Positions 7,310-61,900 of a DNA stretch of 64,000 nucleotides are shown in pieces. The translations under genes were made by a program, and so were the position numbers. The notes under the pieces are model-generated. The model saw only the letters and a program-made list of their open reading frames with translations, ran no database searches and had not been told where the DNA came from. Origin of the DNA: Azolla caroliniana (taxonomy: Eukaryota; Plantae; Polypodiophyta). The stretch's first letter is position 1. The number at the start of each line of letters is the position of its first letter. The DNA lies in the NCBI GenBank assembly GCA_043228905.1, contig JBHGNT010000013.1, positions 7,688,001 to 7,752,000 on the forward strand, written 5' to 3'.

Positions 7310-8376
7310 ATAGTGTAGCTAATTAGTTCAATCTTTGCTAATTAGGTAAGTTGTATAAAGTGTGGAAACTATTTAGTTGTTATGGTTGTAGTGTAGTAGC
7401 TAATTACCTAACATGTAGTTAATTAGCTAAGTGGTAGCTAATTAGCTACTACCATACTTTAGCTGAGTAGCTAATTAGCTAAGTGGTAGCCAATTAGCTA
7501 CTACCATAGTTTAGTTGAGTAACTAAGTAGCTAAGTGGTAGTTAATTAGCTACTACCATAGTTGAATACAATAGCTAATTATCTACTACCAGACTTTAGT
7601 TGAGTAACTAATTAGCTAAGTGGTAGCTAATTAACTACTACAATACTTTAGCTAAGTAGCTAATTAGGTACTACCAGAGTTTAGTACAGTAGCTAATTAG
7701 CTACTACCATACTTTAGCTGAGTAGTTAATTAGCTAAGTGGTAGCTATTTAGCTACCACCATAGTTTAGTACAGTAGCTAATTAGCTAAGTAGTAGCTAG
7801 TTAGCTACTACCATACTTCAGTTGAGTAGCTAATTAGCTACTACCATAGTTTAGTACAGTAGCTAATTAGCTAAGTGGTAGCTAATTAGCTACTACCATA
7901 CGTTAGCTGCGTAGCTAATTAGCTAAGTGGTAGCTAATTAGCTACTACCATAGTTTAATACAGTAGCTAATTAGCTACTACCATAGTTTAGTATAGTAGC
8001 TAATTAGCTACTACCATAATTTAGTACAATAGCTAATTAGCTAAGTGGTAGCTAATTAGTTATTGCCATACGTTAGCTGAGTAGCTAATTAGCTACTACC
8101 ATACTTTAACTTAGTAACTAATTAGCTAAGTGGTAGCTAATTAGCTACTACCATAGTTTAGTACAGTAGCTAATTAGCTAAGTGGTAAATAATTAGCTAC
8201 TACCATAGTTTAGTACAATAGCTAATTAGCTACCACTTAGCTAATTAGCTACTACCATAATTTAGCTGAGTAGCTAATTATGTAAGTGGTAGCTAATTAG
8301 CTACTGTACTACACTATGGTAGTAGCTAATTAGCTACCACTTAGCTAATTAGTTACTTAGTTAAAGTATGGTAGTA
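7310..8376. repeat. About 1 kb satellite-like array built on the palindrome TAGCTAATTAGCTA
   Basis: Dozens of AGTAGCTAATTAGCTA units joined by CTACCATAGTTTAGTAC or AGTGG spacers; a few units also at 5244-5298. Confidence 0.95.
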
Positions 8377-21513: not shown

Positions 21514-24121
21514 GAAGAGAGATATGAACATGTCGTCGACTAGGCTTGTTCCCTGCCAAAGCACCCACCCGCGGGACAAATCCCAGACGTATGCATCAAC
21601 CAACCAAGGTTGACACTTGCGGAAAGGGAAAATTGTAGAGATGCGGAGACATAGAAATGACTCTAACGAATAAAGAAGATTACAAAGATCGCAAGAATAC
21701 AACCGGCAGCCGGTATCTAACCCAAGAGAAAATAGAGAATGAGTGTGGAGCCCCTAACGGAAGCGCACGGGCTTTCACACAACAGAGGCGATTGCCACAA
21801 AGATCTGCAGATGACAACTAAAGATAGAAGGAGGAGAGAGAGCTCAGTTCCCGGACCGACAACACTTCGTCCTCACCCCAAAACGTGAAATCCTTTAGTC
21901 TTCTCCCCTCCCCTTATATAGGCAACTAGGGAGAGACCGTTACAGAGATTCACAATGAATTCCTAGGTAATTAATGCGCACAACCTAGTATATATTTACA
22001 TCAGTCAAATAAATCCTAAATATGTACAAGTTAATAAATCATGTGCACACGTGTAAGGGCCAATTCACGCATATATCCCTTGGATTCCTTCTATGGCCGG
22101 TTTTCTCCACAACATCCACCCCCGCCAAATTGTGCGTCCACCGGCACACGCCAAGACAGCCACCGGAGAAAACCACTTGTTCACGCCTCGCTCTCCGAAT
22201 CCTCGCACCCTCCAATCCGATCGTTACCATCGTCCACGTCTTCTAGAACCAGCTCATCCTCGTATCGCTTCTTGAACGCCTTGACCCCGCTTCCCGGCTG
22301 CCGGCACCGCCAGCCGTGTCCCGTTAAGCTCCGCAAGATGATACGTGCCATTATCGTTCGCGCTTATCACCGTGTAGGGCCCGAACCATCGCCTCAAAAA
22401 CTTGTGCACTGCCTTGTGCTGATTGTCGAGGCTACTATCATACACCAACACCCAGTCACCTTCCTCGATCTTCTTTGGTCGCAACCGGTGTATCCGGTCG
22501 AACCGGCCTTTGTTCCTTTCCCTTGCCATACGTAGCTTCTTCGTTGCCCGATCCACATCCTCCGGCCTCCGCTCAAGTTGTCATATCCGTGCCGCCAATA
22601 GCTCCTCCCGGCTCATCTCGTTTTTCCAATTTATCGCCGCCCACGACGAGATTGTACGCTCCACCGGCATGACTGGCTTCTGCCTTTTTACATACATCAG
22701 TTTCGCCGGCATGAACCTTGTTACCGAACTGTGCGTAGTCCGGTTTGCCCACAATGCGTAAGGAAGGAGCCGTGGCCAATTCCCCACTTTGTCTCCACAT
22801 GCGCGCACCAACGCCTTTACAACCGACCCGTGCCCATGTTCTACCTTTTCGTTCGCCTCTGGATTGTATGCCATAGTGAGAGAGAGCTTGATCCCTAACC
22901 GGTCGAACAACTCTTCGACTTCTTGCGTATCCAGCTCTCCCCGATCTGCCACGATCTTTCCTATGCACCCGTACCGACACACCACCTCCTCGATTAAGAA
23001 TCGGCACACCGCTGCAATTGTCATGTTCTGTAGTGCGCGGCCTTCCACTTGGTTCATTAAGTCCTCTCGTGCAAGCACCAGGTACCACATCTTCCCTACC
23101 CCCATCGGCATCGTTAGTAAGTCCACCATCCATTTGAAATGGACCGTAGGTGGGTAGGTTGGGTGAAGCTCGTCTCGGTGTCGGATCGTGGAGTGCAGCT
23201 GATAGTTCTCGCATGTCGTCACGAACCGGTGCACATCCCGGTACAGCCCCGCCACCAATACTTCTCTTTCAACTTCTCGAATGTGGCCCATGTCCCGTGA
23301 TGTCCGGCCCAGAGGCTCTCGTGGTAAGCCTTCAATAGCGCGCCCTGCTCTCCCTTCTTTATCACCACCTAGAGTGGCATGCCGCCCTTCTTCTTTGGGT
23401 GTTTCCATATGCTTCCTTCCCATAGGAAAAATCGGTAGGCCTTCTTTCGGATCCAGTGAGCCTCCTCTCTCGTCCATATCGTATCCGGCATCATTGTCTG
23501 TAGGAACCTTCCAATTTGGAGCCACTCCCTGTTGTACTCGCTCTCGCGGAACTCGTTAAGCGCTGGAGTGCTCCCTACCCTTGTCGTCACGTTAGCCGAC
23601 CCGAAGAAGTTATCGCCAACTTCTTCGTCATCTGAAACCATGCCGTCTTCATCGTTAAACTGCGCTCTAGAAAGCATATCGGCCATGGCGTTATCCTTTC
23701 CGGAGATGTGCCGTATCTCCGGATCCAAGGACTTGATGTATGCGATCCACCTGAGCATTGCTAGGTCCGGAGTCTGTTGATGGGTGGGGGGTGAAACCTA
23801 GAATGGCTTCATCCCCCTCCCAAGGGGGTTACGTTAGAGAGAAAGAGAGAAGTAAAGAAAATAGAGAATGACACAAAATGAGAGGGGGAAAATTGTATAT
23901 CTCATTACATGCCCCATAGGGGGTTTATATAATACATCCAATGTAACGGTTACATGACCGTTATAAATAAGACCGTTATACATTCTTGTACACATGCACA
24001 TAATTGTGCATGTGTCCATACACATACTCATCCTCAAACACTCATTTACTTTACACATACACATCAACCACATCATTACCAATACCCTTATACCTCCCTG
24101 TATATTCTTACGGGTAACACA

Positions 24122-24160
24122 TGGCACGCTTGTGGGACAGTGCATTGCACGGTGAACCCA
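24122..24160 (+). promoter_or_regulatory. tRNA-Arg-type PBS plus hairpin and T-arm-complementary box
   Basis: TGGCACGCTTGTGGGAC-A-GTGCATTGCAC-GG-TGAACCCA, 2 nt after the left LTR. Confidence 0.8.
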
Positions 24161-24559
24161 CTCGCCATGACAACTCTTCTCGACCGGAACTCCATCGGTC
24201 GTCTCAACAGTCGGAAATCCCTCAACCGGATCACTGCTCTACGATCAATAACTTCGATCAGAGCTTTGCTTGACTCGAACCTTCTTGTTCGGTCAACACA
24301 AGTCGCGATTGGATCATACACCAATCGGCTAGTTCACTGTGGCATGGGTTGTGAAATCGTGTTGTGCATTTGTGTATTCTTTCTTTCATCATGTGGAGTG
24401 AGTTTTATATTTTGTACCCTTTGGTCTTTAAAATTTTGCCCTCAAATTTTTTGAAATTTTATTTTCGGCCCTTGTGTTTTCGAAATTCTGCATTCTTCCC
24501 TCCAATTTTTGAAATTTTCTCTTCATACCCCTCTTCTTTTTCTTTTTATGTCTTCGTCT

Positions 24560-25600
24560 TTTGCTTGGCTATCTTCGCCGCTGTCACTCGGCTGTACTCT
24601 TGGTCGCATATCTGGGTTGCACTCTCGACTGCACGTCTTGGCCGCGTGTCTCAACCGTCTTTTCGACCACGTGTCTCGGTCGTAGTCTCGACCATGCATC
24701 TCGACCGCGCTTCTCGGTCGTACTCTCGACCACACGTCTCGGCCGTATTCTCAGTCGCACGTCTCAATCGTGCTCTCGGCCACGCATCTCGGCGGTGCTC
24801 TCGGCCACGCGTCTTGGTCGTACTTCTCGATCGTGCATCTCGGCCATATTTTGGTCTGTGCGTTTCGGCCACGCGTCACAACCGCGCTTCGCTTCGACCG
24901 CATGTCTCAGTCGCGCATTTTGGCCACATGTCTCTGCCATGCTCTTGGTCGCATGTCTCTAGCGGCATCGGCCATCTCCGCGCCTTTGTGATGGGCCGAG
25001 TCTCTCATGTCCCCGGCCATCTCTTTGGCTCTCTTGGCTTCCATATTATATGTGAGAAGAGGAGTTGCTTCCCATAGTGATGTGTCCACCTCGCTATAGC
25101 TATGTTGTGCACCTTCACTTGTCTGTCTCTCTTTGTCTTCTTTTTATTTCTGATTCTTTCTTTTTTTTGTTTCGTCTCTTCACCTTCTTTCCCTTGTCTT
25201 CTTTTCTTCTTCTCTGCGTTTGTCTTCTTCGTTTTCCTACGTCCTCTTTTCCCCTTCCTTTCCCCTGCTCTACGTCCGACTCGTTCGGCCTTTTGTCTCC
25301 CCGTCAGCAGCCGGTTCGGCGGCCAGCTCTGTTGTTGTCCGCTCTGTCGAACTTCGGCCCTCGTCTTCTACCGCTTGCCCGATTACTGTCGGACTCCGTT
25401 GTCTCCGCCGGTCGTAGCCGGCAGTCAGTTGGCCACGCTCACCAGTCGTTGTTGTCCACTGGCCCTGTCTGTCCGGCGGCCATCTCTCTGTCTAGTTGCT
25501 TCTCTCGACCGACCTCTGTTTGCCTATCTCTCGGCCGGCTCTCGGCTCCCGGCCGTCACACGGTCGTACTCTCGGCCACGCGTGTCGTACTCTTGGCTGC
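24560..25600. repeat. Degenerate short tandem repeats (CTCGGCC/CTCGACC-ACGCGT units) around a CT-rich tract
   Basis: Recurring TCTCGGCCACGCGT-like words at 24560-25020 and 25270-25600. Confidence 0.7.
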
Positions 25601-25764
25601 ATGTTGGACGATGTTGCGAGCATACCCTTGTCGAAGCCAGATCATACTACTTTAGTGTCTTTCCCACCACCTACAAAGAATCTATGGAATGATGTCTGCA
25701 ACAACTACGAGTGGTTGTCTTCTGAGGAGGAGGGAGAGGTGGAATGGGTGTGCCGAGCAGAGGA

Positions 25765-25910
25765 TGGAAGACAATGTCCCTCTCTATGGTGTAGCAATCT
25801 CCTTCCTCCATGTCCATCGCTTTGGAGCTCGTTCGCATCAATCCATGAGAACTGACCTCTTCCTTTGTAGACCACAAATACTGGATCTATGTCTGTGTAT
25901 TGGGCTAAGC
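25765..25910 (-). pseudogene. Captured vicilin-like cupin fragment
   Basis: QYTDIDPVFVVYKGRGQFSWIDANELQ / MDMEEGDCYTIERDIVF across one frameshift resembles cupin-1 motifs 1 and 2 of 7S globulin-like proteins. Confidence 0.5.
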
Positions 25911-26079
25911 GAAAATGCACGCATTTCTCCTGCCTATGTCTTGATGACTAGGAGACATAGCTTCGGATGGGTAGGTACTGATCGAACTCCTGAAAACCAG
26001 ATGCGCATTTGAGATTTGGGATCTGAACGACTGCCATGGAAGCTCTCGCTGCTGTTGCGTCGACTTCCTCTGATGGATT

Positions 26080-26395
26080 TAATTAAAGTCTCAACAGAAA
26101 CAATGTCACCTTCAATGGTCATCATGATCTGCAACTTTTTTATTCCATAACGAATAGCTACAAGCTTTGATGCTCCCCCAACCCAATGAAGACCAGGCTT
26201 GGTAACACTCCGAACTGCTTCCTCGAGTTTTGCCATATTAGTTTCATCACCCCATGGCTTCACATCCAAGAGAACAGAGGACTTGCCACTCTCTTTTTTC
26301 TTCGTACTAGCTTTCTTCTCAGCTTCGCGTTCAGCTGCAGCTTCTTTTTCCTCTTCAGTTCCTTCCCAGAGAGATCCAGATCATCATCATCAGCT
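26080..26395 (-). pseudogene. Captured intronless elongation factor 1B (beta/delta) C-terminal fragment
   Basis: DDDDLDL ... [33 protein letters not shown]...[28 protein letters not shown] is the eEF1B GEF domain. Confidence 0.9.
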
Positions 26396-26961
26396 TCCTT
26401 GGCAGCCTCTGCAGCAGCAAGTCGTCTTTTGAGGCCTAATACCCAGAGCTCTTCTCATCTGCAACCTTGCCTGGGTGGCCACCTCTATTTTCATCGCACA
26501 AATAGACTTTTAGGAGACGATTTTAGGGCTGTCATAGAGGGGCCCTAATAGGAAATGGTTGATGAAATGTACTGTTTCCTATTGTGGGTTTTGGCAAAGA
26601 TTAGGGTTTGTTGCGGTGGGTTTTAATAAGGATTGGAGTTTATGCAGAGAATCTGGGGGCTTGAGGAAGTGGGCTACAAGCATAAATAAAGATTTCAAGT
26701 AGAAATTAGAGTTTCCTTGTGATGTGGGTGATCATAGGGGATCTGCAAGCGAGAAAATGCAAAGAATCATCTTATATCATGCACCCTGCACACACATACA
26801 TGCAGACGTAGAGAGGGAGAGATAGAGATTAGTGATGGAGAGGGAGAGTGAGAAGCTTCTTCTCTTCAAAGAGAGTGACCCACACACACAAAGGGAGAAT
26901 GAGAGATTCATAAGGGAAAGGACTAGTGACCTCTTCTTAAGGGAGGTCGTCCGTTCGGGCG

Positions 26962-29900
26962 TTCGAAATAGATGTCATAGCAATCGCGGCAGAATATGCC
27001 ACGGCCACTGTTCCCCACGACGAGCCTTATGAACCAAACCCAGAGTCCATATTGGAACTCAGCAGAGCACGAGTGGCATTCGAAAGGGAAATGGAGATTT
27101 CACGACGAGTCACCGCTTCCGCTCTTGAAGAACTGAATGTGGGTACGGAATCGGAGCCTCGGTTCCTCTCCATCGCAAAGGAATTAAGGCCGGACCAGAG
27201 AATCACGATGATCACACTACTCACGGAATATAAAGATGTGTTCGCTTGGGCTCACGAGGACATGAAGGGGTTAGATCCCAAGTTCTATCAACATAAGATC
27301 AATTTAGCAACTGATGCGAAACCCGTCCAGCAGTGCCGCTATCGCATGAACCCCAATTACGCGACCCGAGTGAAAGAAGAAATTGACAAGCTCTTGAAGG
27401 CGGGGTTCATACGACTAATTAAACAAGCGACATGGCTAAGCTCGATAGTGGTCGTCCCAAAGAAAAATGGCAAAATACGGGCATGCGTAGATTACCGGAA
27501 ATTAAACGTCGTAACCATTACAGACGCATTTCCCTTACCCTTCACCGATAGCGTGCTGGCCGCCATTGCAGGCCATGAGATGTACAGTTTCTTAGATGGC
27601 TCCAATGGCTATAACCAGGTACGCATGCACCCCGAGGACCAAGAGAAGACGACGTTTGTCACGGACTAGGGAGTCTATGTGGCAGTGGTCATGATGTTCG
27701 GGCTAAAGACAACGCCGACAACATTTCAACGAACGATTACAGAGATCTTTGGGGAATACATTTCGGCGTTCATGCAAGTTTTTCTAGACAACTTTGCGGT
27801 ATATGTTGAAACAATAGACCATTTTATGCACTTACGATTGTGCCTGGAACATTGCCGCACCGCACGCTTAAGCCTGAATCCTGCGAAATGTGCCTTCGGC
27901 GTGACCAACGAGACTCTCCTAGGCCACATAGTCAGCAAAGAGGGAATAACGGTCGACCCAAACAAGATCTCCACGATTACGCAAGCCAAAACTCCGACAA
28001 ACGCCAAATCGCTTAGCCGGTTTTTAGGACAAATACGGTGGCATAGTCGGATGATACGGTATTTGGCGGACTTCGCCACGCCGCTACACGTTGCCGTACA
28101 TCGAACTCCTTTCCAATGGACTGCAACGGAGGATAAGGCCTATGAAGCACTTAAGATAATGCTCACACAGGCTCCCGTTGTACAACCACCAGTTTGGGTA
28201 AAGCCATTCCACGTGTTCGTCGACGCCTCAGACATAGCAATAGGAAGCGCACTAATGCAACTCACCGAACCAAACCGGTACATGCCAGTATACTACGCGA
28301 GTCGTAAATTGTCAACAGCTGAGCGTAACTATTCCACAACTGAGCGGGAGGCGCTAGGGATGATATATAACATCAATAAATTCCGACACTATTTATTAGG
28401 AAGGAAATTCACGTTCCACGTGGATCATTCGGCATTATTGTATTGGGTAGAGAAACAAGCCCTGACAGGGAAATTGGCGCGGTGGATGCTGCTGCTCCAG
28501 GAATTCGATTTCGTAATTCAGCACTGACCAGGAACGCAACACGCAGTGGCGGATTTTTTGTGCAGACTCGAGAATGGAGAAACAATACAGAAAGACGATG
28601 ACGATTTTCCGGACGCTGACATCTTGCGAGTAGCGACATTTGCAGAAAAAACGAAATCCACCTTTCCAGACCGATGGCTTATGGAAATGACGTACTTTTT
28701 AACTACAGGACTGTCTCCACCACAATTACGCACGGACGAGAAGAAACGACTAGCCGTCTGAAGCCGTCACTTCTGCCTCGTCGAAGGCATTTTATATCAT
28801 AAAGGAAGTGACTGCATTTGGCGACGTGGGGTCCCGTCAGGATGAGAAGGAAGCAGTTTTACGGGAGGCACACTGCGGCACGGCAGGCGGCCATTACGCG
28901 GGCGGCGTGACAGGCCGGAAAGTATGGCAGGCGGGCTTATGGTGGCCAACAACACAGAAGGACGCATCCGAGTATTGTAGAAAGTGTGATTTGTGTCAGC
29001 GAATGGGTTAGCCCGCGGAGGACGCAAGGATGCCACACCAGCCCGTATTACCGCTAGACCCCTTCCAAAAGTGGGGATTGGATTTTGTAGGGCCCTTCAC
29101 ACCAGGGGCGGCCCGTACGGGCAACAAATACATATTGGTAGCCACGGATTACTGCACCAAATGGGTAGAAGCAAAGGCACTACGTGAAAATACGGCGGCC
29201 GTCACAACCAAATTCCTTTACGAGCACATCTGGTGCCGGTTCGGCTGTCCGATTGAGCTCATCAGTGACCAGGGGAGTCACTTTCTCAATATGGTGGTTC
29301 GGGAACTAACACATCATTACGCCGTAGTCCACAAGAAGAGCACGCCATATTATCCACAGGCGAATGGATTAGCAGAATCCACGAACAAGACATTACAGAC
29401 CATTTTGAAGAAAACCTTCAATGAAAATAGAACGGACTAGGATACCAAACTACAGAGTGTGTTATGGGCGTACAAAACTAGTTACAAAACAAGCATACAG
29501 TCAACACCGTTCCGATTAGCGTTTGGACTGGAGGCTATGATGCCGATCGAATTTCAGCTATCGAGTTTGCGCATTCAGATACGGAACCGATTATCAGAAG
29601 CCAAGTCGGAGGAGGTACGGCTCTACCAGCTCCTCGAACTAGGGGAAAAATGCGTCCACAACATGGCTGTGTTGGAATAGGAACAACGACGGTGTAAAGC
29701 GTTTGTGGATCGACATCGGAACGCAAGGGAAAAGGAGTTCGCCGTGGGCCGAGCGGTGCTAGTTTTTCAAACACGCATGGGCCATATGCCGGGGAAGTTA
29801 CGTTTCCGTTGGACCGGCCCATACTGGATAATTGGAGCGGAACAAGGCACGTTCCAACTAGGAACGCTGGCTGGGGAAGAATTACGGCAAAAGGTGAATG

Positions 29901-29986
29901 AATTTCGGCTCAAACCTTACCTGGGCCCTACGCCACCTAACCCATTCACCCCCGAACAGGACAGAGTTGGGGAACCCGCAGCGTAA
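26962..29986 (+). pseudogene. Gypsy pol (RT, RNase H, integrase) with stops and a frameshift
   Basis: VPKKNGKIRACVDYRKLN, FLDN (YxDD site), [43 protein letters not shown]. Confidence 0.95.
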
Positions 29987-30135
29987 AATGGACAACCCCA
30001 TTTGTACTATAATGTAAAAATAGGTGGTAAATAACCATTAAAAAAAGAAAAAGAAAAAAAAGAAAAGAAGATAGTGACTATTAAAACGACTAAAGGCACG
30101 CACAAACTCCTAGTTCAAGAACACGCGGCACCACG

Positions 30136-33120
30136 ATGGCTCACTGCCCAATGAACCCTAAGCCCCAAAAAGAAGGAAACAGAAGATTTTTTGCACAAAG
30201 CAAAAACCCATCTTCTAGCTATCAGCGCTCCCATCACTCCTCCTCACCTTCTTCCCCATCCTATCTCAGAGCTCCAACTCACCACAACCAACCATCTCCT
30301 CCCCACGAACCTACTCTGGCGATGCCGATCTTCATCTCTACTGCCCTACGCCGATGGCTCGTGAAGAAACGCCTGGATGGGTACATCTGGGTCGCAGAAG
30401 CACCTCCGCACCCGGACGCCATGGACATCGCCAGGAGGCTTAACATCGAGACGGTCACCAACTCTTCCATCCGGAAGAAGTTGGACCTATCCTCACTAGG
30501 CGAAAGACATTTCGAAATACCTCCTGTAGAGGCGCTGCAACGGTATTTTGGGCCATATTCCTCCTCCGCCAAGGCCTATAGAACAAAACAAATTCCGGAT
30601 CCCTTCTTCCGTGAAGTTGCCAAGTTCCCGCTAGAAGTCGGATGCGTACATGTCAACGCATATGGGATGCCTAAGCAGAAAGCGGGCATCATCATTGATA
30701 CCTTTGAAGGGTGTGCCATCGACTGGGGAGTCATCACAGGGCCAGCGTTAAGGGAAGGCTTGCATGCGTACCAAGCAGGCAAAAAGCTCAGGCCGATCAT
30801 CCAACAATACCTTACGGTACTATTTCCACCCCGAGGCCTGCTAGCACCGCAACCCAGCCAACCCACGGCCCCGCCCCGATCCGTGAAACGCAGGTTAGCA
30901 GAGTTATCGGCCCCAGATTAGCCGGACACACGGACAACGCAGGAGGAATAGCCGAAACGCTCCAGTGAAGTAGCCCCAGAACCAGACACCGAAACACAAC
31001 GGGAAAGCCCCAAACCAAAACGGCGCAGATTGGAAAGGAAAGATGGGCGGGGGTTGGTAAAAAACACCCCCACGGCAACGGAGACACCAACCGAAGGCGA
31101 AGGCACCGCAGCAGCGGAACCGAATACCACCTTCGAAATCATCCGGGAGCCACGACCGATTATTACGACTCAGTCCCAACAAGGGAAAGCCGTATTGACG
31201 GCGGAAAGCGAGGTTTTGGCATATCCGGATATCCTGGATACGGCCCACGAGTTCAGCGCCCTCTTGCAGTTCGGTACTTCTTTTGAGCTCATGGAGTTCT
31301 TGGCAACACAACAGGTCAAAGCCGCCCAACGAATGGCCGAGGAGCATGCGGAACACCAGATGATCGAGCACACCCTAACACAAACAACGGAGAGCGACGA
31401 TGAGGACCGGATAGCCAAGGTCGGCAGACAGAGGAACGCCGGGGTACGGCGAGTGGGGATGGAGATACCGCCCTTAAACATGGCCCTAGTCGAAGTCCAT
31501 CGGGAACTGGCAAAGGTCAGCACGGGCGCCAAGGAGATGGCCATAAAAAATAAGAATGTCTGGAAGAAGGTTAAACTGATCAAAGCCGAACTGCAAAAAG
31601 CCAACACACGCAGCGCCGAGTTGGAAGCTCATGCGACTATGGCGCAACACGCAACCCCACCACCGAACCATGTCATCGACGCTCTAAAAGAAGAAATCGA
31701 GGCTCAGACCGCCATCGCCTCAAAAGCAAAAAGGGCTGTGCAGCTAGCAGAATCCGAAATTGACCGTCTTCGCGCAGAACTACGCCAATCCTCAGACAGA
31801 GAAAAGGAGATACAGGCTAACGGACGGAAGGCAGTAAAAACTCTTGAAGAAAAACTAGCTACGGAGGTAGCTCAACACATCCGGACAAAGGACGACAACG
31901 CACAATTACGAGAGGACGCGAAGAAATCGGAGGCGGCAATAGTAGGACTTCGGGCCTTGTTAGAAAAAAAGAAGGTATGGTTCGATGAGCAGTTGGTGGT
32001 CGAACAAGACAGAAGGCATCAGCTCGAAATCCGCCTAAACAATGAGATGGGGAAATTAGAAGAACAACATGCAAAGGAATCCCAGCTGTGGGCGGGCATG
32101 AAGACCACGTATGAGGAAGCGACAGCCGTTAAATAGCAAGAAATCACAAATCTCCAGAAGTCGATGGAAGACGCACGCAACCGTTGCCAGGCCATCACAG
32201 ATAACATGCGGATCCTTCTCCAAACAAATCGAGAGAGGTTCACAACACAATTCAAAACGGCGCTGGACAAAGGATGGATGGCGTGGGCAACCCAAGCAGC
32301 GGAATTGCACGCGTATCATGCGGACTGGGAGAACCGGCGTAAAGACGGTCGAGGTTTCTATAAACTAAATGAGGAGAGCATTGCGACCGTACGGGAGGAC
32401 CTAGCGCAAGACTATCGTGCGCTAGCAGACCAACACTCTGAAGAACTCGCACAACTCTTAGATGATTTTGGTGAAAGTCAGGAGGAGCTATTTCACCAGA
32501 TCACGCAGGCCGGCAACATGCGCACAAACGAGGAATCCAACGCGTCACCAATTCCGGCCCCAGCCGAAGAAGAGGAACCTCAGGCCCGATCACCAGAGAT
32601 GACAACGAGGGAGAATAGCGGGGGCCGACGAGCGGAGTTCCCCACAAAACCAGACAACAAAACCACTACCCAACAAGAGGTCCGGCCGCACGAGCCCACA
32701 CTATCATCAGACCACGCAGAGAACGGTGAGGACCAGGCGGAATCTCCGCCCCACTCCCAGGAATATACAAAAACGGCCAACACCACGGAGGACGTAACAA
32801 TGGAGGCAAAGTTGCAGCCGACTGCAAGCACGACAACGGTGGAGCCCAACCCACTAACTCAAGAAGAGCCTACCGTACCCGGACCACCCACACACGGCGA
32901 CGGGCCCTACATCACCTCCGGACGAGGACACCACAACAGAGCCGAACATCCGGGCCATTTTGGAAGAAGATTAAGGGATGGGTTCGACGTGCAAAGGCAC
33001 TGTCCCACCAGGCGTGCCAAAAGTGTTGATGGGTGGGGGGTGAAACCTAGAATGGCTTCATCCCCCTCCCAAGGGGGTTACGTTAGAGAGAAAGAGAGAA
33101 GTAAAGAAAATAGAGAATGA
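30136..33120 (+). pseudogene. Single accessory ORF downstream of integrase: globular N-terminal domain, long coiled coil, disordered tail
   Basis: ORFs 30136, 31030 and 32164 share one frame, broken only by three stops (30919, ~30966, 32134); homologues at 4230-5210 and 52049-52426. Confidence 0.8.
32979..33019 (-). promoter_or_regulatory. Inverted tRNA-Arg-type PBS module at the position of the PPT
   Basis: Minus TGGCACGCCTGGTGGGAC-A-GTGCCTTTGCAC-G-TCGAACCCA, 4 nt from the right LTR; no purine tract adjoins the LTR. Confidence 0.85.
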
Positions 33121-36100
33121 CACAAAATGAGAGGGGGAAAATTGTATATCTCATTACATGCCCCATGGGGGGTTTATATAATACATCCAATGTAACGGTT
33201 ACATGACCGTTATAAATAAGACCGTTACACATTCTTGTACACATGCACATAATTGTGCATGTGTCCATACACATACTCATCCTCAAACACTCATTTACTT
33301 TACACATACACATCAACCACATCATTACACATACCCTTATACCTCCCCGTATATTCTTATGGGTACAAGAGTCGCGCACCCGGAAACCATACCAAGAATC
33401 GGTAGGCAATCCGTCTCGATGATCACTTCTGTCCCGATCAGATAGTCCTTGTTGGCCTTGACTGCCGAAACGATACCCCACAGCTCGCGCTTGACTTGGG
33501 CGTATTCTCATTGTCGCTCGCTCAATACCTTCGCTCTGAACCGGATTGGGAACCGCGTGCCTCTCTCATCCTCCTAATTGACTACCCACCCTATCCTGGT
33601 CGGGCTCGTGTCTACGGTCACATAGATGGGGACTTCCTTGCCGTAGACTCTTTCCGGAGAGCCGGTGCCGCCGTAAGCGCCTCCTTCAGTCTCCGGACCG
33701 ACTCTGTGTGCCTCGGCTTCCACTCGAATTTACGCCCTTTCTTCAGCAATCCATAGAGTGGCTCCGCGACTTGGGCGTAGTGCGGGATGTAGATATGGTA
33801 GAATGCACATTCGCCCAAGAATCTCCGTACCTCCATAATCGACTTGCATTCTTCTTGCATTGCGGAGATAGCTTCCACCTTTGTTGGAGACGGTTTAGAA
33901 CCGTAAGGCCTGCACAAGTGACCGACCACTAGGATCTCCGATTGGCCAAACGCTGATTTCTCTCCGGAGAAGGTGAGTCGTGCGCCTTCTAGCCTTTGCA
34001 GCACCCTTTCGCAATCAACAATGTGGTTCAGCACGAACCTCTAGCATCCGTCCGGTCCAATCGTCTCGTCCTTGTCCTCCACCAGACATCCCTTTATTGG
34101 TATGTCGTCCAAAAATGGCATGGTGATGTCCGGGATGCCATCCCTCAGTACTTTATTCATCGCATTCACCATGTGCGCCACTGAGTTCGTACCTCCTTGC
34201 GGTAGGGTACACATCCGCACTAAGCCGAGAGGAGTCCACATCGTTGTGATATCTCTGCTCTCTACGGCTAGCTAGAACTCGTCGTACACCAAGTATAGAT
34301 CCCCGACCGAGTAGATCGAACTTCCGGCGAAGGCCTCCACAAATTCATCTATGGTCGGTCTGATACCTGCGTTACGGATGGTCACCTTATTGACCGGCTG
34401 CAGGTCCTGAATGAAGTGCAACGTGCCGTTTTTCTTTGGCACAATGAACCACCGATTCGAATATGGGGCGCTCAACGGCTTGAGGACGCCCATCTCCACT
34501 TTCTGCTTCAATAGCTCCATCAGCTTCGGGATGTGAGCTCTGGGTACTAGAATTGGCTTGAGATTCCACGACACATGCGGCACCGTGAATATCACCATTG
34601 GCTCTACCATCGTCGGGTCTACGCACCCGATCTCCTCCGGCAAGAATGCGAAGGCCTTTCCGTGCCTCCCGAGCATTCTCTGAAACCGGTCCTCCTCCGC
34701 CGGTAGTAGAAAGCCACCCCCACCGACCTTGAGCTCTCGTAGCGTTATGTCGAGAAACCGGTGTCCTATGCCGTCCGGATCTCGTAAACTCGGGTCCGAC
34801 GTGACCCCTTTCATCCGTAGCTTGCTGCCCTCCGGCAAGGGTACCGCGACTGGCCTCACCTTCCGGTCCACAGTCTTATACTTCGTATCCACGCAGGTCG
34901 TCCGATTTGACCTAATCCTCTCCTTGAAGTTCACCATGACTTCGTACATCTCTACCGAGCTAACTGGAATCGTCCGGCTTTCGCTAAGGCCTTCTTTGAC
35001 CACCCCGCATAGTTCCCCCAAGGTGTCATCGAAAGAGACCACCTCCACAACACCACTAATCTCTTCACCGGGGTGGAGAGCTCTGCACAACTTGAGCCGC
35101 TCGTCCACCCTCTTCTTCTCCCGACCATTGATGCCGGTTAATGTATAGCCTCCATTGTCGGAGAGCCAAAATTTCCTACCTACTATACATGTGTGGGGTT
35201 CCTCTAGACTATCGCGGCGCCACGCCTTGATAGCCCTTTCTAAAAATCCCCCCGGCTATTGCCGCAGAGGGTCTCGCGGTTACGCTCATGATTTGGTCGT
35301 ACGATCAGGAATTGGACGGACTGTCATCTGTCTTGAGTCTTTACGCGCGCGTACGCCGAACCGTTGTCAAGCACCTTTGTCTCCATGCGTGCCGCTGTGA
35401 TGTATGGTTCGCCGAGTATCACCTGGTGCGAGGATGTCTCCTGCACAAAGAAGAGTTGATCAATCTCGATGTCACCAATCTTCACGCGTACATTCGGGCA
35501 CGCTCCATGCAGTTCCTCCATGGCGCGTGTCGCCGCGCGTATCTTCCACCCATGCTTGGTGTTGATCGACCATTTCCCCTTTTTGTAAAAGTCCATGGAC
35601 ATTAGATTTATTTCGGACCCATGGTCTATCAACGCCACCACTGGCTCTTGCACGTCCCCGATCCGAACAGGGGTCTTCGTAGTGGCTCTGGCCCAATGTA
35701 ACTTCGAATAGTGGCTTTCCGCCAACTCGTCTTCCAGGGCCACATCCTCTAGGTGCGTAGTCCGCACCTCTACGAGTTTCTCCGGTTCCGGCTCCATGGA
35801 GAACCGTTTGCGCTTCACCAAGTCCATGATGGAGTCATGGAACTCCTTCTTGGCGATTCTGAGCACCTCCCTCAATGACAGCTCCACCTTGCTATCAAGG
35901 ATCCGTTCTTGGAGAACCTTCCACAGGTTCATTGTCCTTTCTATCTCGGTGCTTAGCCGGTAATCGGCCGGCTTGGCTTTGTCCGGCATGCCGGGATTGC
36001 CGACATCGCTCTTCTTCGGGCTGAACTGGGTCTACCTTTGCGAGGGACCTGCCCCTCCATCCTTCCCCACATGCTTGTCATCCACCAGAACCTCGTAGTT

Positions 36101-52426: not shown

Positions 52427-52809
52427 TGTTACCCCGTACGAGATGTACGGAGAGTCAAGTGTGATGAGCGAGGGTCGAATGTTATCATGATGTTGTTGTG
52501 TATGTGTAGGGGGCATAAATGTAATTGTGAGTCTATACATATGTGAACACATGCACACGTGTGTGCATGTGGATGGATACGAGGAGGTGTGAGTGAGTGT
52601 CCAGTATGAATGCTCGATGGGGCTTACACCCCTATGTATCTACCCCCTCTTGTACTATTTAACCCCTTATGGGGAATGAATGAATACAACAATAACCATA
52701 TTTCTCTCTCTCTCTCTCTCTCTCTTTGACATCTTTCTCTCCCCCTTAACGTTGAACCCCCTTGGGAGGGGGGTGGAGCCATTCTAGGCACCATCCCCCA
52801 CCCCTCAAT
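52427..52809 (-). repeat. LTR related to the element 3 LTRs, inverted
   Basis: Minus GGGTGGGGG..CCTAGAATGGCT..CCCCCTCCCAAGGGGGTT start and TACGGGGTAACA end match 23775-24119. Confidence 0.8.
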
Positions 52810-53099
52810 GCTTGTCTTGTTCTTCATGTTCTCTCTCACTGTCATACCATTCACCATCTCCACCATTCCACAATGCTTATCTCCATCATCACAACGATGG
52901 GCAATGCTTCTTGATGCACATCATGATCTCTCACCATCATCATCACACATACATTATCAATCTACCATGATTGTTAACCCTATTCCTATCTTTATCATTA
53001 TCATCATTAACCCTAACCCTAAAACCTATAACAACGATGGCCTGAGCTTCTGGGTGGGGAGGTGCATCCAAGACATTGAGATATCCTAAGAGGCCGCCG

Positions 53100-55013: not shown

Positions 55014-58000
55014 GTGGCCCATGTGACAGAAAATGCACTTAGGATGACCTTATGGAATTGTAACGACGCACTCTGGGCACACCCCGGCCGCCTAGAGGAG
55101 ATACTAAAGGTATCTGATATACTTTTCTTGGTAGAAACACATCAGAGCCCAAATAGAGGACTCCTACGGGTCGAAGGATTCCGTTGGGAGTTCGCTTTTA
55201 GACAAATCTCACGTCGACACACTACTAGGGGATCTGGAGGTGCCTCGATACTGTTTCGTAGAGAGCTACATAATAGGATATAAATAATGAAGATAGACCC
55301 AGAAGCTCGTTTTATATGGGTGAAAGTCTCCACAAGCAAAGACCAGGCAATATTTTTCGCCATTTGTTACTTTCCCCCAAAAGGATCCCATTATAATATT
55401 GGTGGCTTGGCGAGATTAGTCGATGAAGGAATGCCACATGGGCCTTCTCCATACGAACCCCTATCGGATGACATAATCCGATATTCTTCCCAAGGAGAAG
55501 TATTTCTTGTAGGAGACTTCAATGCGAGAACCCAATCCCGACAATACACAGTATTTCAGATGAATAGAAACCTAGAAATGGTAAATGTCGATCCTTTAGA
55601 CATAGGCACCACACGTAGATCAAAGGATCAAGGTGCGGACGCCATGAGCTTTGGCCATCATCTGCTCGAACTTGGCAGTCAACACCGGATGGTCATATAT
55701 AATGGTTTAGCTAAGTGGACGGGCTTGGAAGAGCTCACATGTTTCCCACATGGAGGAGGGGAAAGCATAGTTGATTATCTAATAGGACTCCTTGAAGCTA
55801 CCCACATGATTAACTCCTTCTGAGTGGCCCCATGCCCTATTGTCGTAGACCATAGTTTCTTGTACTTCAAGCTAAAATGTGATATCTCTAAGGTCACCAA
55901 GTCTAGTCAACCATGCCATCACACCACAATACATTTCACACATGAGCTCTCTGACATATACTCTCAACATGTTCAAGCCCATCTCCCCTCCCTTGATCCC
56001 TCCCTACCGTTAGAAAGCCTTAGTACGAAACTCACACACATCCTTCACTCCGCAGCAGCTAGCAGTTTCCCATATACAAAACACTCAAATCAAGGTAGAT
56101 TAGGATCAATGCCACAAAATAAATGGTATGATGAGGATTGTAGGGACTTACATAGACAACTTACAGTATCACAACTCAATGGTAGTATTACCTCCATACA
56201 AGCTCGCAAAGAAATGCGCAAGATGACACGTCGTAAGAGACGAGCGTGGGAGGCATCCCAATATTGGGAATTCTACCATATGCTCATGAGTAGCGATTGC
56301 GCCATGGCATGGAAGAGACTACGGGAGCCAAGACCACAAACACCCATCGAAGATCCCGAAACTTGGCACACATATACAGAGAGACTTTACCAAATCCCAA
56401 ACCAACCACCCATTCCAATGCCTTCCACACCCCGGCCTATCACGGGGACACTTTTCACGACCTCTAGGGTCGTGAAGGTCATAAAGAAATTACCTCTAGG
56501 GTCGTGAGAGTGCCTAGCTCCCTTACTAACTCTAATCTTCAATTGTGCCCTTGCGGAGGGTTTTCCACCACAGTGGACTATGAATACAGTGGCCCCCACA
56601 CATAAAGGGGGGGGAGGGCCATGGACCCAAATACATATAGGACCATTATGATAGGCCATACCCTTGCTAAGTTATATGGTGTAGTAATGGAATCAGAGCT
56701 TAGCGACTATATGGAGACCCTAAACCTTCGTGCACCTGAACAAGCTGGCTTTAGACAAGCCTTCTCCACTATTGATCATATCTTCACACTTAGATGCATA
56801 ATTGACCAAACTAAGGCTCGCAAGAAGAAATTATATTGTTGTTTTGTGGACTTCCGCAAAGCCTTTGACACAGTCCCTAGAGAGCGGTTGTTTGATAGAC
56901 TTAAAAGCTTGAGGATACCAGATGATATGGTATGGGCCATCTACGCACTATATGAACAAGTGTCCGGGTGTGTCCGATGCCCCGGTGGCATATCTAATCA
57001 TTTCACTAGCACTATTGGTGTAAAACAAGGTTGCCCCCTATCACCGACGCTTTTTGGAATCTACATTGATGAGATCACAGATTTTATTGCTCGTGAGGGA
57101 GGCACCGGAGAGGTCCTTGGGGATACGCAGGTTCGTATCTTGCTATATGCGGATAAAATAGTTTTGCTCTCTGAATCCGAACACGACCTATAGAGGCACC
57201 TGAATGCCTTAGATGACTTTTGTGTACAACGAGGATTGGTAATGAATCTAGGGAAAACGAAAGTCCTTATCTTCCACACATCGGCCCAAGTTAGAGCTAA
57301 GTGTCACCTAACTATCTCCCATAGCCCAGTTGAGGTGGTTGGATCATACGTCTATCTCGGAGTCACTTTTAGTGCCCGCTCAAGTAAATTTTCGATGACA
57401 CAGGCAGCGAAGGATAGACTCACGAGAGGACATGCATCCCTCTCACTCCTAGAGAGACAATGCCACCAAGCACACTTTCAAGAGCCACGGACTAAAGGGT
57501 GGCTCTTTGACTCATTAGTGACCCCCTCCCTCATGTATGCATCAGCGGTTTGGGCTCCAGGATTACCATCTTTCATGTGGACTCAATTAGAAAGACCATT
57601 GGTGATGATGCTATCATGCCAACTGCGAAGCAAATCGACTGTACCACATGACATTATTAGGGCTGAGTTCACGTTACCCCCAATGTTAGTAGATGCACTT
57701 TTTCAACTTGTAGTCTTCATTCACAGGATACATAGCCAACCACATGATAGAATATCTCATCAAGCCTTTAAGGCCTCTCGATCATTGTATGAGTCCGGCT
57801 ATACTAGCTCATGGTATGGCATGATGGTGAGTTGGCTTCTTGCGAATGGTCTAGACATTAATAACCTACCTCCCCTTAGGTACAACCACACGAGTGATAA
57901 CACTTTAATCTCTCATGAGGACCGCAATAAAGTAATACACCAAGAAATATGGCAAATTTACACTCGGTGTAAATGGATCACCCCATTAGAGCCACTCCCA

Positions 58001-58713
58001 TCTAAAATGTTGTACTATAAGAAACACTTCATGCACTTCTCTGAGTTAGGTTTTATCACGCATCCAAAATATCTAGATGTATTCTTACCACATGCACTAA
58101 GGGTTGCCATTGGACAACTTAGAATATCATCTCACCAACTTGAGATTGAGAATGGCCGTACTAGTGGAGTCCCTAGGGAGGAAAGGATATGTAGGTTATG
58201 TCACATAGAGATAGAGGATGAGTACCACTTTACATGCAAGTGTCCAACCTATGCCGAGATAAGGGCAAAATACCAAGACATACTTGGTTCGTCTCCCACC
58301 CTCCCCAAACTATTAGATACTCTAGATATAAAGAAATTAGGCAAATACATTCTAGAGCTAAAACAACACAGAGAGAATAAGTTACAAAATGTTGACAATA
58401 ATGTTGCTAATAATCACGAACATGTAACAAATGAAGTTTTTCAGGAATAGGGAGAGACAACGAATGTCGGCACACTTGCACCACTCGGCCTTTCTATTGA
58501 TGAGGCAGAAAACCAGAGAAGAACCAGACGTCCTCGGGTGCCGGGTTTCAAAACAACTCGACGTGATGTGGAAGCAATATTGAAAATGAGGGAATGTGAG
58601 CTACACCGCCTAGAAGCCATGGCTAGGGCACTCTCTACATTGGAACCACGGGTCACACCCACATCAAGACCCTTTGACCCCCCACTTCTTTTCGAGAGGT
58701 TTGGGTGGAAATA
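55014..58713 (+). pseudogene. LINE ORF2 (AP endonuclease, RT, C-terminal zinc finger) with stops
   Basis: LWNC, LVETH, VGDFNAR, VDY; QAGFR, FVDFRKAFD, GVKQGCPLSP, LYADK; LRISSHQLEIENGR..ICRLC..EDEYHFTCKC. Confidence 0.92.
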
Positions 58714-58928: not shown

Positions 58929-61900
58929 GTCCCTTGGTCGCCGTAACAAACAATGTTGTTGGAATTTAATTGGGGTCTTTTCCATTGTTTTCTTAGGCTT
59001 TCGTGTCTTCAATTGTTGGTGATTCTTAGTCCTTCCTCACCAAGGATTATTTCCAATTACTGTGTTTGATATACGAGCATTCATATCTATTCCCATTACT
59101 GTGTTTGATCCTTAAACGAAGTGGTCAAAGAATCGGTTGTGGCTGAGCAGTATTTCGCGTTGTTTTTCAACAGGCTAGAGAGTCAGGTAGATAGGGAGAA
59201 GGCCTTGGAGATGGAGAACGAGAGAAAGCTTGGTTAGAGAGAGTAGGCGAGTGAGAGCAGTTTTGCGCAGAAGGAGCGAAAGCTTGAGAGTTCTTGGAAG
59301 GAAGTGTGGTGACTCTGGCTATTGGTGATGTTTTTGTGTGGATGCCTCGGTTCTCGAGACGTGCCCTTGTGCCCTAGATTTAGAATCTTGCCTGCCATGC
59401 TGAGAGTTAAGGGCCACACGTCGTGTGAACTATTTGTACTTGCTTTTTTTGGACATTGTACCTCGACTTAAAATAATGAGTGGGTCTCTATTTTTTTTTA
59501 ATAATAATATTGTACATGTAGACGGTAGGTAGGGTTGTTACCGTAATCGAGGCGTGATACCCTCGTAATCTTCTATTGCACCTACCATCGTTTGGTCAAA
59601 ATCGTTCCATTGGTAAATGGGTTAGGTGGTGTCGTTCCACGGTACGGTTTCAACCAAAACCCGTTGACCCAATGTGGCAGCGCTTCGCCGGCTAGTGTGC
59701 TGAGTTGAAAGGTGTCGTTGTATGTGTCGATGATCCACAAAGGCCATATCCACCGGAATCGAAGCTTGCCGGGCATAGCCCCGAGTTTTGTTTGGAAAAC
59801 TAGGACCAACTGCCCGATTTCAAAAGTTTTGTTCGGTATTCGACAATGTTTGTCTATGAAGGCTTTCCTTCGTCTCTAGCCGTGCTCCAATTGAGCTAGA
59901 CTAGTAATTCATTGTTCTTCGGGTTCGAGCAATTGGACCAGACGCTGGTGTTTGGATTCTGATTCCGGTAATCGTTCGGCTATTTGTACTCGTAAGCTGG
60001 GTACTTGGAATTCAATGGGCATTACGGCTTCTATTTCGAAAGCTAGCCGAAAAGGCATTGAGCCGATATTGGTTTTAAAGGTCGTGCGATAAACCCATAA
60101 AGCACTGTTTAATTTATCGTCCCAATCCATGAGATTCTCATTGACGATTTTCTTAAGAATGGTCTGAAGGGTTTTATTTGTGGATTCGGCAAAACCATTA
60201 GCTTGGGGATAGTACGGGGTGCTTTTCTTGTGTACGACGGCGTAGTGGGAGGATAATTCGCATATGATTCGATTGACGAAGTGTCCTCCTTGATCACTTA
60301 CTAGCTCGATTGGACAACCGAAACGGCACCATAAATTTTCGTAAATGAATTTTGCGGTTGATGCAGTCGTGTTATCTCGAAGCGCCTTTGCTTCGACCCA
60401 TTTCGTACAGTAATTAGTTGCTATTAGTATATATTTGTTTCCGGTGTGTGTGGCGGGGGGTTTAAAAGGGCCTACAAAATCCAAGCCCCATTTTTGGAAT
60501 GGTTCCAAGGGAGGGATCGGCTGGTGAGGCATGCGGTCGCGCTGATTCGGTTGTCCCATCTGTTGACAGAGATCACATTGTTTACAAAAATCGTGAGCAT
60601 CCTTTTTCGTGGTCGGCCACCAGAGCCCACTCTGCTAGAATTTTCTGGCTGTGGCGTCACCTGCATAATGCCTGCCCGCAATTCCGTGGTGAGATTCCCG
60701 AAGTACCGCGTCTTTCTCGAATTGTCGAACTGCACGCCTCCAGATGCCATCTGAGGCTTTGTGATACAACGTATTCGTGAATAGATAGAAATTACGGCTT
60801 TAGACTGCTACCTGTTTCCGAGCATCAAGTGTGAGGTAGTTCGGGGAAAGTCCCGTACTTAGGAATTGTGTCATTTCGGTGATTCAAGCGTCGTTAGGAT
60901 CAGACTTGATGGGTGCTGTCTCGATAGAGAATAGGGCGGTGTCTGTTAAGTCACCGTATTCCTAGTTCGGCGGTTCTCCCGTTTCGAAGCGGCTAAGGTA
61001 GTCGGCAATCGCGTCTTGAACTCCTAGTCAGTGTTGAATCTCGAAATCGAACTCCTGAAGGAGAAACATCCATCGGGCTAACCGACCAGTCAGAGCTTGC
61101 TTATTTACATGGTAAAGTAGTGCCGAATGATCTACGTGGAACGTGAATTTTCGGCCGAGCAAATAATGCCGAAATTTTGTAACACTATATATTATGTCGA
61201 GTGCTTCTCGTTCCATGGTGGATTAATTCCTTTTTGTTGTCGAGAGTCGGCTGCTGGCGTAGTAGACTGGGCGATACCAATTTGGTGGGGTTTTCTGAAT
61301 TAAAGCACTACCGATCGCAATATCGGATACGTCCACGAATACGTGAAAGGGCTTTGTCCAATCCGGGGGTTGGACTACTAGGGCTTGGGACAACATGACT
61401 TTCAATGATTGGTATGCCATGTCCTCTCATTCTATCCATATAGATTGCTGCGTGTAAAAGGGTCGTGGAATCAACAAGGTATCGGAGCATACGACTATGC
61501 CACTGTATTTGGCCCAGAAATCGGCTGAGTGCTTTGGCCGTAGTGGGGGCCGGGGCATTCAAGATGGCTTGCACTTTGTCTGGGTCCATAGCGATACCCT
61601 CTTTACTAACAATGTGACCTAGTAAAGGTCCGCTTGTCACTTGGAAAGCACATTTGGCCGGATTGAGGCTGAGCCGTGTGTGTCAACATCTCTTGAGGCA
61701 TAATCGTAATTGCACAAGGTGTTCCGTGTGTTGTCGATAAACAACGAAATCATCAAGGAAAAACTTGCATAAAGGCTGGAATGAAGTCTTGAAAGATTTC
61801 GGAGATTATGCGTTGAAATGTGGCGGGGGTTGTTTTCAAGCCGAACATCATAAATGGCTACAAATAAACCCCATTTTGTTACGAAGGTTGTTTTCTCTTG

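What the first reader, a model, noticed from the sequence alone, without database searches (positions are those of the whole stretch)
23775..33368. Gypsy element with two inverted tRNA primer-binding modules and no polypurine tract
Seen: after the left LTR is TGGCACGCTTGTGGGAC-A-GTGCATTGCAC-GG-TGAACCCA (24122-24160, plus). Before the right LTR, where the PPT should be, is the same module inverted (32979-33019; minus TGGCACGCCTGGTGGGAC-A-GTGCCTTTGCAC-G-TCGAACCCA). The LTRs are direct repeats about 98% identical with TSD GAGTC, so the unit integrated in this form. Established: LTR elements normally prime the minus strand at the PBS and the plus strand at an RNase H-resistant PPT. Inference: here the plus strand is also tRNA-primed, either on minus-strand cDNA or from an antisense transcript. 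Alternatively the RNA's own tRNA-like ...GCGUGCCA segment is the primer, or it pairs with the 5' PBS to circularise the genome. I know of no description of this arrangement.
Basis: partly seen in the sequence, partly recalled or inferred. Interest (0 to 1): 0.92.

Follow-up and report, generated by a model that had tools for sequence, protein, structure and literature searches.

The report
tRNA mimic replaces the polypurine tract
A group of plant jumping genes carries a conserved copy of a tRNA's tail where such elements normally have the purine tract that starts their second DNA strand, so a host tRNA likely starts both strands; the copy in this window is itself a two-parent hybrid, likely made when the copied tRNA tail landed on that mimic by mistake.

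Summary
The unit runs on the minus strand. The left module (24122-24161) is a sense copy of a tRNA-Arg-like 3' arm, split by a hairpin, 2 nt before the 3' LTR where the PPT belongs. It recurs in 85 modules from metagenome contigs, across 17 LTR clusters; 19 of 20 far ends carry a short true PBS. These loci were chosen by the module, so the share of relatives that keep a PPT is unknown. The window copy is a chimera: a non-coding element with about 6 kb of an autonomous partner (pol, extra ORF, mimic) inserted inverted inside its PBS. In 3 of 4 runs that partner continues into a different LTR. An 18-nt tRNA-type PBS on one side of the insert and the short PBS on the other point to a mistaken second strand transfer. 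Best mechanism, untested: host tRNA anneals to minus-strand cDNA and primes plus strand (0.5). Ten paper searches found no description. The scan has noted the family-level feature before, elsewhere in this genome.

The parts
23770..23774 (.). Target site duplication GAGTC (left)
23775..24119 (-). LTR, inferred 3' LTR of the minus-strand element; TATA-like box on - at 23924-23931, a second one on + at 23962-23969
24120..24121 (-). 2-nt spacer between the mimic's CCA and the LTR
   Evidence: 2 nt in 60 of 72 modules with a recognisable LTR end
24122..24161 (-). tRNA 3'-arm mimic at the PPT position: T-arm box, 4-bp hairpin insert, 17-nt acceptor-side box ending CCA
24162..26962 (-). Non-coding interior of a non-autonomous family (degenerate 12-13/25-nt repeats at about 24590-24960); about 100-fold lower contig depth than pol
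26069..26278 (-). Captured host elongation factor 1-beta/delta fragment (PF00736, E 5.5e-20), sense on the inferred transcript strand
26925..26962 (-). Remnant of the non-autonomous element's own short PBS side; left breakpoint of the insert, inside the PBS core
   Evidence: aligns with the PBS side of L006, L011, L015 and L035
26962..29986 (+). Inverted insert: 5'-truncated pol (RT, RNase H, integrase; no gag or protease), 6 stops and one frame change against P0006
30322..32586 (+). Inverted insert: extra ORF of unknown function (no Pfam hit), 3 stops in the aligned part; 8 unnamed homologues of 361-872 aa
32978..33001 (+). T-arm box and hairpin of the autonomous donor's mimic
33002..33019 (-). 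18-nt PBS, inferred to be copied from the tRNA primer; right breakpoint of the insert
   Evidence: (joint 26948 to 33002)
33020..33023 (-). 4-nt spacer between the LTR and the PBS, the same as in non-autonomous relatives L011, L016, L021 and L045
33024..33368 (-). LTR, inferred 5' LTR
33369..33373 (.). Target site duplication GAGTC (right)

Best explanation
These Ty3/gypsy elements carry a conserved copy of a tRNA 3' arm right before the 3' LTR instead of a polypurine tract, and a host tRNA-Arg likely anneals to the minus-strand cDNA copy of that site and primes the plus strand, so both strands would be tRNA-primed. Steps. (1) Shown: short PBS after one LTR; split tRNA-arm mimic in transcript sense before the other. 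(2) Inferred: tRNA primes minus strand at the 9-10 nt PBS as usual. (3) Inferred: once RNase H, whose catalytic residues are intact in relatives, clears the RNA, the cDNA exposes a 17+10 nt match. tRNA binds it as a three-way junction, with the hairpin between tRNA positions 59 and 58, and is extended through a 2- or 4-nt spacer into the LTR. (4) Inferred for this copy: the plus strong-stop DNA of a non-autonomous element, ending in an 18-nt tRNA copy, landed on the mimic of a co-packaged autonomous RNA, copied about 6 kb backwards, and returned to its own PBS. That gave the two full inverted modules seen here.
For: Position and orientation: in 14 of 83 loci the extra ORF lies antisense just beyond a module, none has it in sense there, and in 13 of 14 it stops before the module, so the module is non-coding. 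TATAWAWR lies on the strand opposite the module in 10 of 17 LTR clusters, on the module strand in 1. Unselected check: in 3 of 4 runs the pol/eORF family runs through a 17-nt mimic into an LTR after 2 nt (8, 8 and 4 contigs, agreement 0.88-0.99); that LTR end matches L034. Conservation outside the search pattern: the T-arm box is within 2 mismatches in 69 of 82 modules, against 0 of 238 control windows, across 17 LTR clusters. A fetched tRNA-Arg(TCT) 3' end pairs with modules as a three-way junction (bacterial stand-in). The mimic does not follow the PBS: L063, L064 and L075 have another PBS type with the same mimic, which points to a partner in trans. The mimic's own RNA has no common strong fold (z -1.5 to +0.4 in 5 of 5). 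Real-tRNA priming at the PBS: 18-nt sites occur at PBS ends (joint 26948 to 33002 in 3 of 4 runs), while 84 of 85 mimics are 17 nt.
Against: No RNA, cDNA or biochemical data: nothing here shows what primes plus strand. The host tRNA was not seen; identity rests on bacterial tRNAs with the same 3' arm (mostly Arg(TCG), one Arg(TCT)) and on recall. The 83 loci were picked by the module and come from one series of assemblies, so the lack of a PPT in them is partly built in and rows are not independent. The PBS-mimic mismatch is one lineage of 3 contigs. No autonomous member was seen at both ends. A tRNA on DNA is an RNase H substrate and could be cut before extension. No listed contig piece bridges either chimera junction (tables cut: 32 of 2,117 pieces shown), so a local mis-assembly of this copy is not excluded by reads.
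Confidence: 0.5

Rival explanations
1. The element's own RNA mimic survives RNase H and is the plus-strand primer: a structured, non-purine PPT that RT accepts because it looks like a tRNA end.
For: It sits exactly where a PPT sits. The hairpin could extrude from both strands of the hybrid and block cleavage. It needs no second tRNA and keeps the textbook order of steps (PMC5371799, passages).
Against: Loop letters vary freely while tRNA-matching letters, including the T-arm box outside my pattern, are kept across unalignable LTR families. An RNA paired to its own cDNA copy would not need tRNA identity. No shared fold of the mimic RNA.
Confidence: 0.22
2. An antisense transcript from the 3' LTR carries the module as a true PBS, and its strong-stop DNA serves as the plus strand (two minus-type initiations).
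For: The module looks like an extended RNA-type PBS. The window's LTR has TATA-like boxes on both strands. Hairpin variants keep a wobble pair on the module strand (7 of 85, a letter my pattern allowed). Inversion joints recur (window, L067, L002/L023).
Against: Only 1 of 17 LTR clusters (5 of 50 modules) has a TATA on the module strand. The wobble change is also the usual CpG mutation.
Confidence: 0.12
3. The mimic pairs with the 5' PBS to circularise the RNA or to self-prime minus strand, and plus strand starts by some other route.
For: The mimic's last 9 nt complement the PBS in 16 of 19 interiors seen at both ends. 5'-3' bridging is known in Ty3 and Drosophila gypsy (PMC1635307, PMC5371799; passages).
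Against: 3 of 19 interiors have a non-complementary PBS. 18-nt tRNA-type PBS copies exist. It does not explain the T-arm box, the fixed 2- or 4-nt distance to the LTR, or what defines the LTR edge. A purine-rich stretch further upstream (at least 13 of 15 purines within 104 nt in 21 of 79) cannot be the primer, or the module would be part of the LTR.
Confidence: 0.1
4. For this copy only: the two-parent interior is a local mis-assembly or a later DNA-level recombination, not a reverse-transcription error.
For: No bridging piece is listed. Repeats with shared 17-18 nt words can be mis-joined.
Against: The insert is bounded by the tRNA-type 18-mer on one side and by the short-PBS arm on the other. 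A single DNA parent would supply only one of the two forms. The LTR pair, TSD and split host frame are coherent.
Confidence: 0.15

Closest known systems
Canonical Ty3/gypsy reverse transcription (Ty3; PMC5371799, passages read)
   Same: LTRs, 5-bp TSD, tRNA PBS, gag-PR-RT-RH-INT in one frame with intact RNase H residues in relatives.
   Different: [quoted passage not shown]
Bipartite or second PBS of Ty3 and Drosophila gypsy (PMC1635307, PMC5371799; passages)
   Same: A second tRNA-related site near the RNA 3' end.
   Different: Those sites complement tRNA on the genomic RNA, and the elements keep a PPT. Here the site is identical in sense to the tRNA end including CCA, so tRNA can bind only the opposite strand.
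Plant non-chromovirus lineages Athila, Tat/Ogre/Retand, Phygy, Selgy (PMC6317226, passages and supplementary file 5; ATHILAfinder 10.64898/2026.03.20.713144, passages)
   Same: No chromodomain; 5-bp TSD and an extra 3' ORF as in the OTA group; tRNA-Arg PBS types occur in Ogre, TatIII and Retand.
   Different: No archaeal-type RNase H (not Tat). PBS is not Asp/Asn, and there is no PPT junction, which Brassicaceae Athila conserve. 5-bp TSD and an extra ORF differ from Phygy and Selgy.
Tf1/Tcn1 self-priming (PMC6317226, passages)
   Same: An element-encoded sequence complementary to the PBS exists in the transcript.
   Different: Self-priming replaces the minus-strand tRNA using the transcript's 5' end (detail recalled) and leaves the PPT; here the complement is at the PPT site and 18-nt tRNA-type PBS copies occur.
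Helenus TRIMs (PMC10886601, abstract and passages)
   Same: Non-autonomous LTR elements with tRNA-derived sequence.
   Different: There the tRNA-like part lies inside the LTR as a promoter, is not complementary to the PBS, and a PPT is present.

Membership tests
Ty3/gypsy LTR retrotransposons | Domain order PR-RT-RH-INT | tested here: met
   RT-RH-INT in the window; gag-PR-RT-RH-INT in P0006 and P0008, protease hit weak
Ty3/gypsy LTR retrotransposons | Direct LTRs with TSD | tested here: met
   one outer LTR end departs from TG..CA
Ty3/gypsy LTR retrotransposons | tRNA PBS next to the 5' LTR | tested here: met
   19 of 20 far ends; 18-nt site in the window
Ty3/gypsy LTR retrotransposons | PPT abutting the 3' LTR | tested here: not met
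   window both ends; no purine run of 10 or more in the last 60 nt in 0 of 79 module-selected loci; donor family
Tat/Ogre/Retand | Additional archaeal-type RNase H | tested here: not met
   no such Pfam hit in P0006 or P0008 or the window
Athila | PBS for tRNA-Asp/Asn and a conserved PPT junction | tested here: not met
   Arg-type PBS, no PPT
Athila | RT/RH/INT phylogeny within the Athila clade | not testable with these tools
   no labelled reference set (REXdb) is held; best named RT hits are unclassified Adiantum and Riccia proteins
Phygy/Selgy | 4-bp TSD, Trp/Ala PBS, no extra ORF | tested here: not met
   5-bp TSD, Arg-type PBS, extra ORF
Chromoviruses (Tcn1, self-priming) | Chromodomain after integrase | tested here: not met
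   no chromodomain hit at E 0.1
Bipartite-PBS elements (Ty3, gypsy) | 3' site complementary to tRNA on the genomic RNA strand | tested here: not met
   the site is tRNA-sense on the coding strand
tRNA-Arg(UCU)-primed elements | Match to the host's own tRNA 3' end | tested here: inconclusive
   no host genome; only bacterial tRNA-Arg stand-ins

The most novel reading that the evidence does not exclude
A whole lineage of non-seed-plant gypsy elements has given up the polypurine tract and primes both DNA strands with host tRNA, using a hairpin-split site that steers RT to extend a tRNA on DNA instead of cutting it; this window preserves a fossil of the pathway's built-in error, a 6-kb inversion captured at the PBS.
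Probability: 0.5. Interest if true: 0.9.

Novelty: new variant of a known kind. Interest (0 to 1): 0.8.

Why it matters
PPT priming of the second strand is treated as general for LTR retrotransposons and retroviruses (PMC5371799, PMC10886601; passages). A successful lineage without it would show a second solution and give a direct test of how RT chooses between extending and cutting an RNA on DNA. It also matters in practice: tools that orient or filter elements by PBS and PPT would read the non-coding members backwards, as happened here, or miss them. The chimera shows a route to inversions and to capture of coding DNA by non-autonomous elements.

Tried and rejected
No whole genome is held, and loci gave no genome handles. 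The module pattern found nothing in viral contigs or genome contigs; the integrase query found no relative in viral contigs. No tRNA gene in the window. No RNA holder listed. The second pol copy in the window (about 63700 to 59600, minus) has lost its 3' end and says nothing on the PPT. The EF1B search did not fix the host lineage (75-80% to many land plants). A motif search of papers returned only unrelated primers in the 30 of 77 listed. Coding constraint as the cause of conservation was rejected (13 of 14 ORFs stop before the module). A bidirectional LTR promoter as a family trait found little support. The lack of listed substitutions inside the module was not used, since variant hairpins fell out as loose ends. 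An anticodon-complementary box after the PBS did not change with PBS type in L063 and L064 and was not used. LTRs with a PBS on one side and a mimic on the other (15 of 26) may be collapsed assemblies or tandem arrays and were not counted as elements.
Full report
Observation. The LTR pair (23775-24119, 33024-33368; 98.2% over 342 nt; 8 of 345 positions differ), the TSD GAGTC and both inverted modules are as described. The TSD splits one RNase H frame of a host element, so the unit integrated whole. Neither inner end has a purine tract next to the LTR. The interior has RT, RNase H and integrase on + (26962-29986), an extra ORF on + with no Pfam hit, no gag or protease, and an EF1-beta/delta fragment on -.

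Relatives. One scan of metagenome contigs with the module pattern gave 85 stretches, of which 83 loci with 85 modules were held. They come from one series of assemblies and include near-duplicates. Of 86 modules (with the window's left one), 72 have an LTR-type end within 1-6 nt (2 nt in 60, 4 nt in 11, 5 nt in 1), 10 do not and 4 are cut off. The 64 with enough LTR sequence fall into 17 single-linkage clusters. 84 of the 85 locus modules match a tRNA end over 17 nt with one base missing; one has 18, although the pattern allowed both. The T-arm box after the hairpin, which was not in the pattern, is within 2 mismatches in 69 of 82, against 0 of 238 control windows.

In 14 loci the extra ORF lies antisense just beyond a module (28-57% identity to the window's ORF); none has it in sense there. 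In 13 of 14 the frame stops before the module. TATAWAWR lies on the opposite strand in 10 of 17 clusters and on the module strand in 1, the window's own, which has both. So the module is, in transcript sense, a copy of a tRNA 3' arm ending in CCA, 2 or 4 nt before the 3' LTR: the PPT position. At the far end of non-coding interiors (0.57-3.5 kb), 19 of 20 LTRs are preceded by a short PBS-type site; 16 complement the mimic over 9 nt and 3 (L063, L064, L075) are of another type. Such sites occur 30 times against 0-3 in shuffles.

Bias. These loci were chosen by the module, so they cannot give the share of the lineage that keeps a PPT. The unselected check is: contigs found through the window's own extra-ORF end run through a 17-nt mimic and, after 2 nt, into an LTR in 3 of 4 runs (8, 8 and 4 contigs); 24 of 276 loose-end rows were shown, and none shows a purine tract between that ORF end and the LTR. 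No autonomous member was seen at both ends.

The window copy is a chimera. Summed contig depth is about 100-fold higher over pol and the extra ORF than over 24612-26753 in all 4 runs (not a copy number). The LTR that follows the donor's mimic matches L034 and L080, not the window's LTR. Window 26925-26962 aligns with the PBS side of non-autonomous relatives up to the middle of the PBS core, and pol homology starts at 26962. Other copies join that PBS side straight to the 18-nt site and the right LTR (joint 26948 to 33002 in 3 of 4 runs, with related joints; 15 of 198 joints shown). So a minus-strand non-autonomous element has about 6 kb of an autonomous partner inserted, inverted, inside its PBS. 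The insert is bounded by the 18-nt tRNA-type form on one side and the short-PBS arm on the other. I infer a mistaken second strand transfer: plus strong-stop DNA ending in the tRNA copy paired with the mimic on a co-packaged donor RNA (17 of 18 nt, better than its own 9), copied backwards, then returned. No listed piece bridges the junctions, so mis-assembly is not excluded by reads (about 0.15).

Which tRNA. The host genome is not held. The module without its hairpin matches real tRNA 3' arms: 24 prokaryote loci, called mostly Arg(TCG), one Arg(TCT) and one Asp(ATC), and a few without a call; a looser pattern hit three phage tRNAs of other calls among 4 loci. The fetched Arg(TCT) end co-folds with four modules as a three-way junction, with the hairpin between positions 59 and 58, and with two short PBS sites over about 10 nt plus a weak second helix. 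That plant tRNA-Arg(UCU) has this end, and that copying stops at m1A58, are recalled and not tested.

Mechanism. Best (0.5): tRNA anneals to the minus-strand cDNA copy of the mimic and primes plus strand. For it: exact PPT position, PBS-like spacers, tRNA identity kept while loops and LTRs diverge, independence from PBS type, and no common self-fold. RNase H residues are intact in relatives, so the cDNA would be cleared. Rivals: the RNA mimic as its own primer (0.22), antisense-transcript priming (0.12), circularisation or minus-strand self-priming (0.1). No priming step is shown.

Known systems. Ty3 plus strand starts at a PPT (PMC5371799, passages). The second PBS of Drosophila gypsy and Ty3 complements tRNA on the genomic RNA (PMC1635307, passages). 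Helenus has tRNA-like LTRs plus a PPT (PMC10886601, abstract and passages). By PMC6317226 (passages and supplementary file 5) the element fails defining traits of Tat, Phygy, Selgy and chromoviruses, and the PBS type of Athila, whose PPT junction is conserved in Brassicaceae (10.64898/2026.03.20.713144, passages). PMC11963269 gave one background passage. Best named RT hits are fern and liverwort proteins (52-65%), and unnamed ones reach 72-77%; lineage and host are unplaced. Ten searches found no description of a tRNA-sense site replacing the PPT. Most were seen as listings only, subscription papers are largely missing, and the per-element table of PMC6317226 and bioRxiv supplements could not be seen and may bear on this.

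Earlier notes. Ten unreviewed notes from other places in this genome report the same family-level feature, and one from a fungal genome a similar single case. They were read after my reading was set and are not evidence. The reversed orientation and the PBS-inserted chimera did not appear in the lines shown.

Verdict. Observation confirmed, interpretation partly supported, new variant of a known kind, interest 0.8.

Noticed in passing
window 52429-53032 (-): Likely solo LTR of a related family with a longer outer part, flanked by a 4-of-5 target duplication and inserted into an extra-ORF homologue (52426 to 51894); read by eye, homology.
   Followed up: partly
window about 59600-63750 (-): Older, more decayed relative with gag, protease and pol (65% DNA identity to the insert); its 3' part is interrupted, among others by a LINE at about 55300-58450.
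   Followed up: partly
L002:737-1310 and L023:451-1082: A full module and, 570 nt on, a full inverted mimic plus LTR; the two contigs share the interior exactly but differ upstream, so another chimera or a mis-assembly.
   Followed up: partly
L067:187-1967: LTR, module and antisense extra ORF switch to an integrase in the opposite orientation at about 1226: another inversion joint.
   Followed up: no
L006:140-190: The only 18-nt module among 85, with an atypical LTR side; possibly the same kind of mis-transfer product as the window's right end.
   Followed up: no
PBS side of non-coding relatives; window 26927-26939: A conserved purine box about 25 nt past the PBS could pair with an Arg(UCU) anticodon loop (7 nt against the L093 tRNA), but it does not change in the families with another PBS type.
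   Followed up: partly
L029:1062-1137 and 2756-2828: Two tRNA-Lys genes in the flank of an element end; tRNA-gene proximity was not seen in the other 82 loci.
   Followed up: no
window 23919-23975: The LTR centre is symmetric: divergent TATA-like boxes around a 13-nt palindrome, in this LTR family only.
   Followed up: partly
window 30322-32586; P0121-P0128: The extra ORF (about 800 aa, coiled-coil middle, acidic tail) has no Pfam family and only 8 unnamed homologues.
   Followed up: no
window 7389-8376: Tandem repeat array with a period of about 255 nt and inverted self-matches.
   Followed up: no
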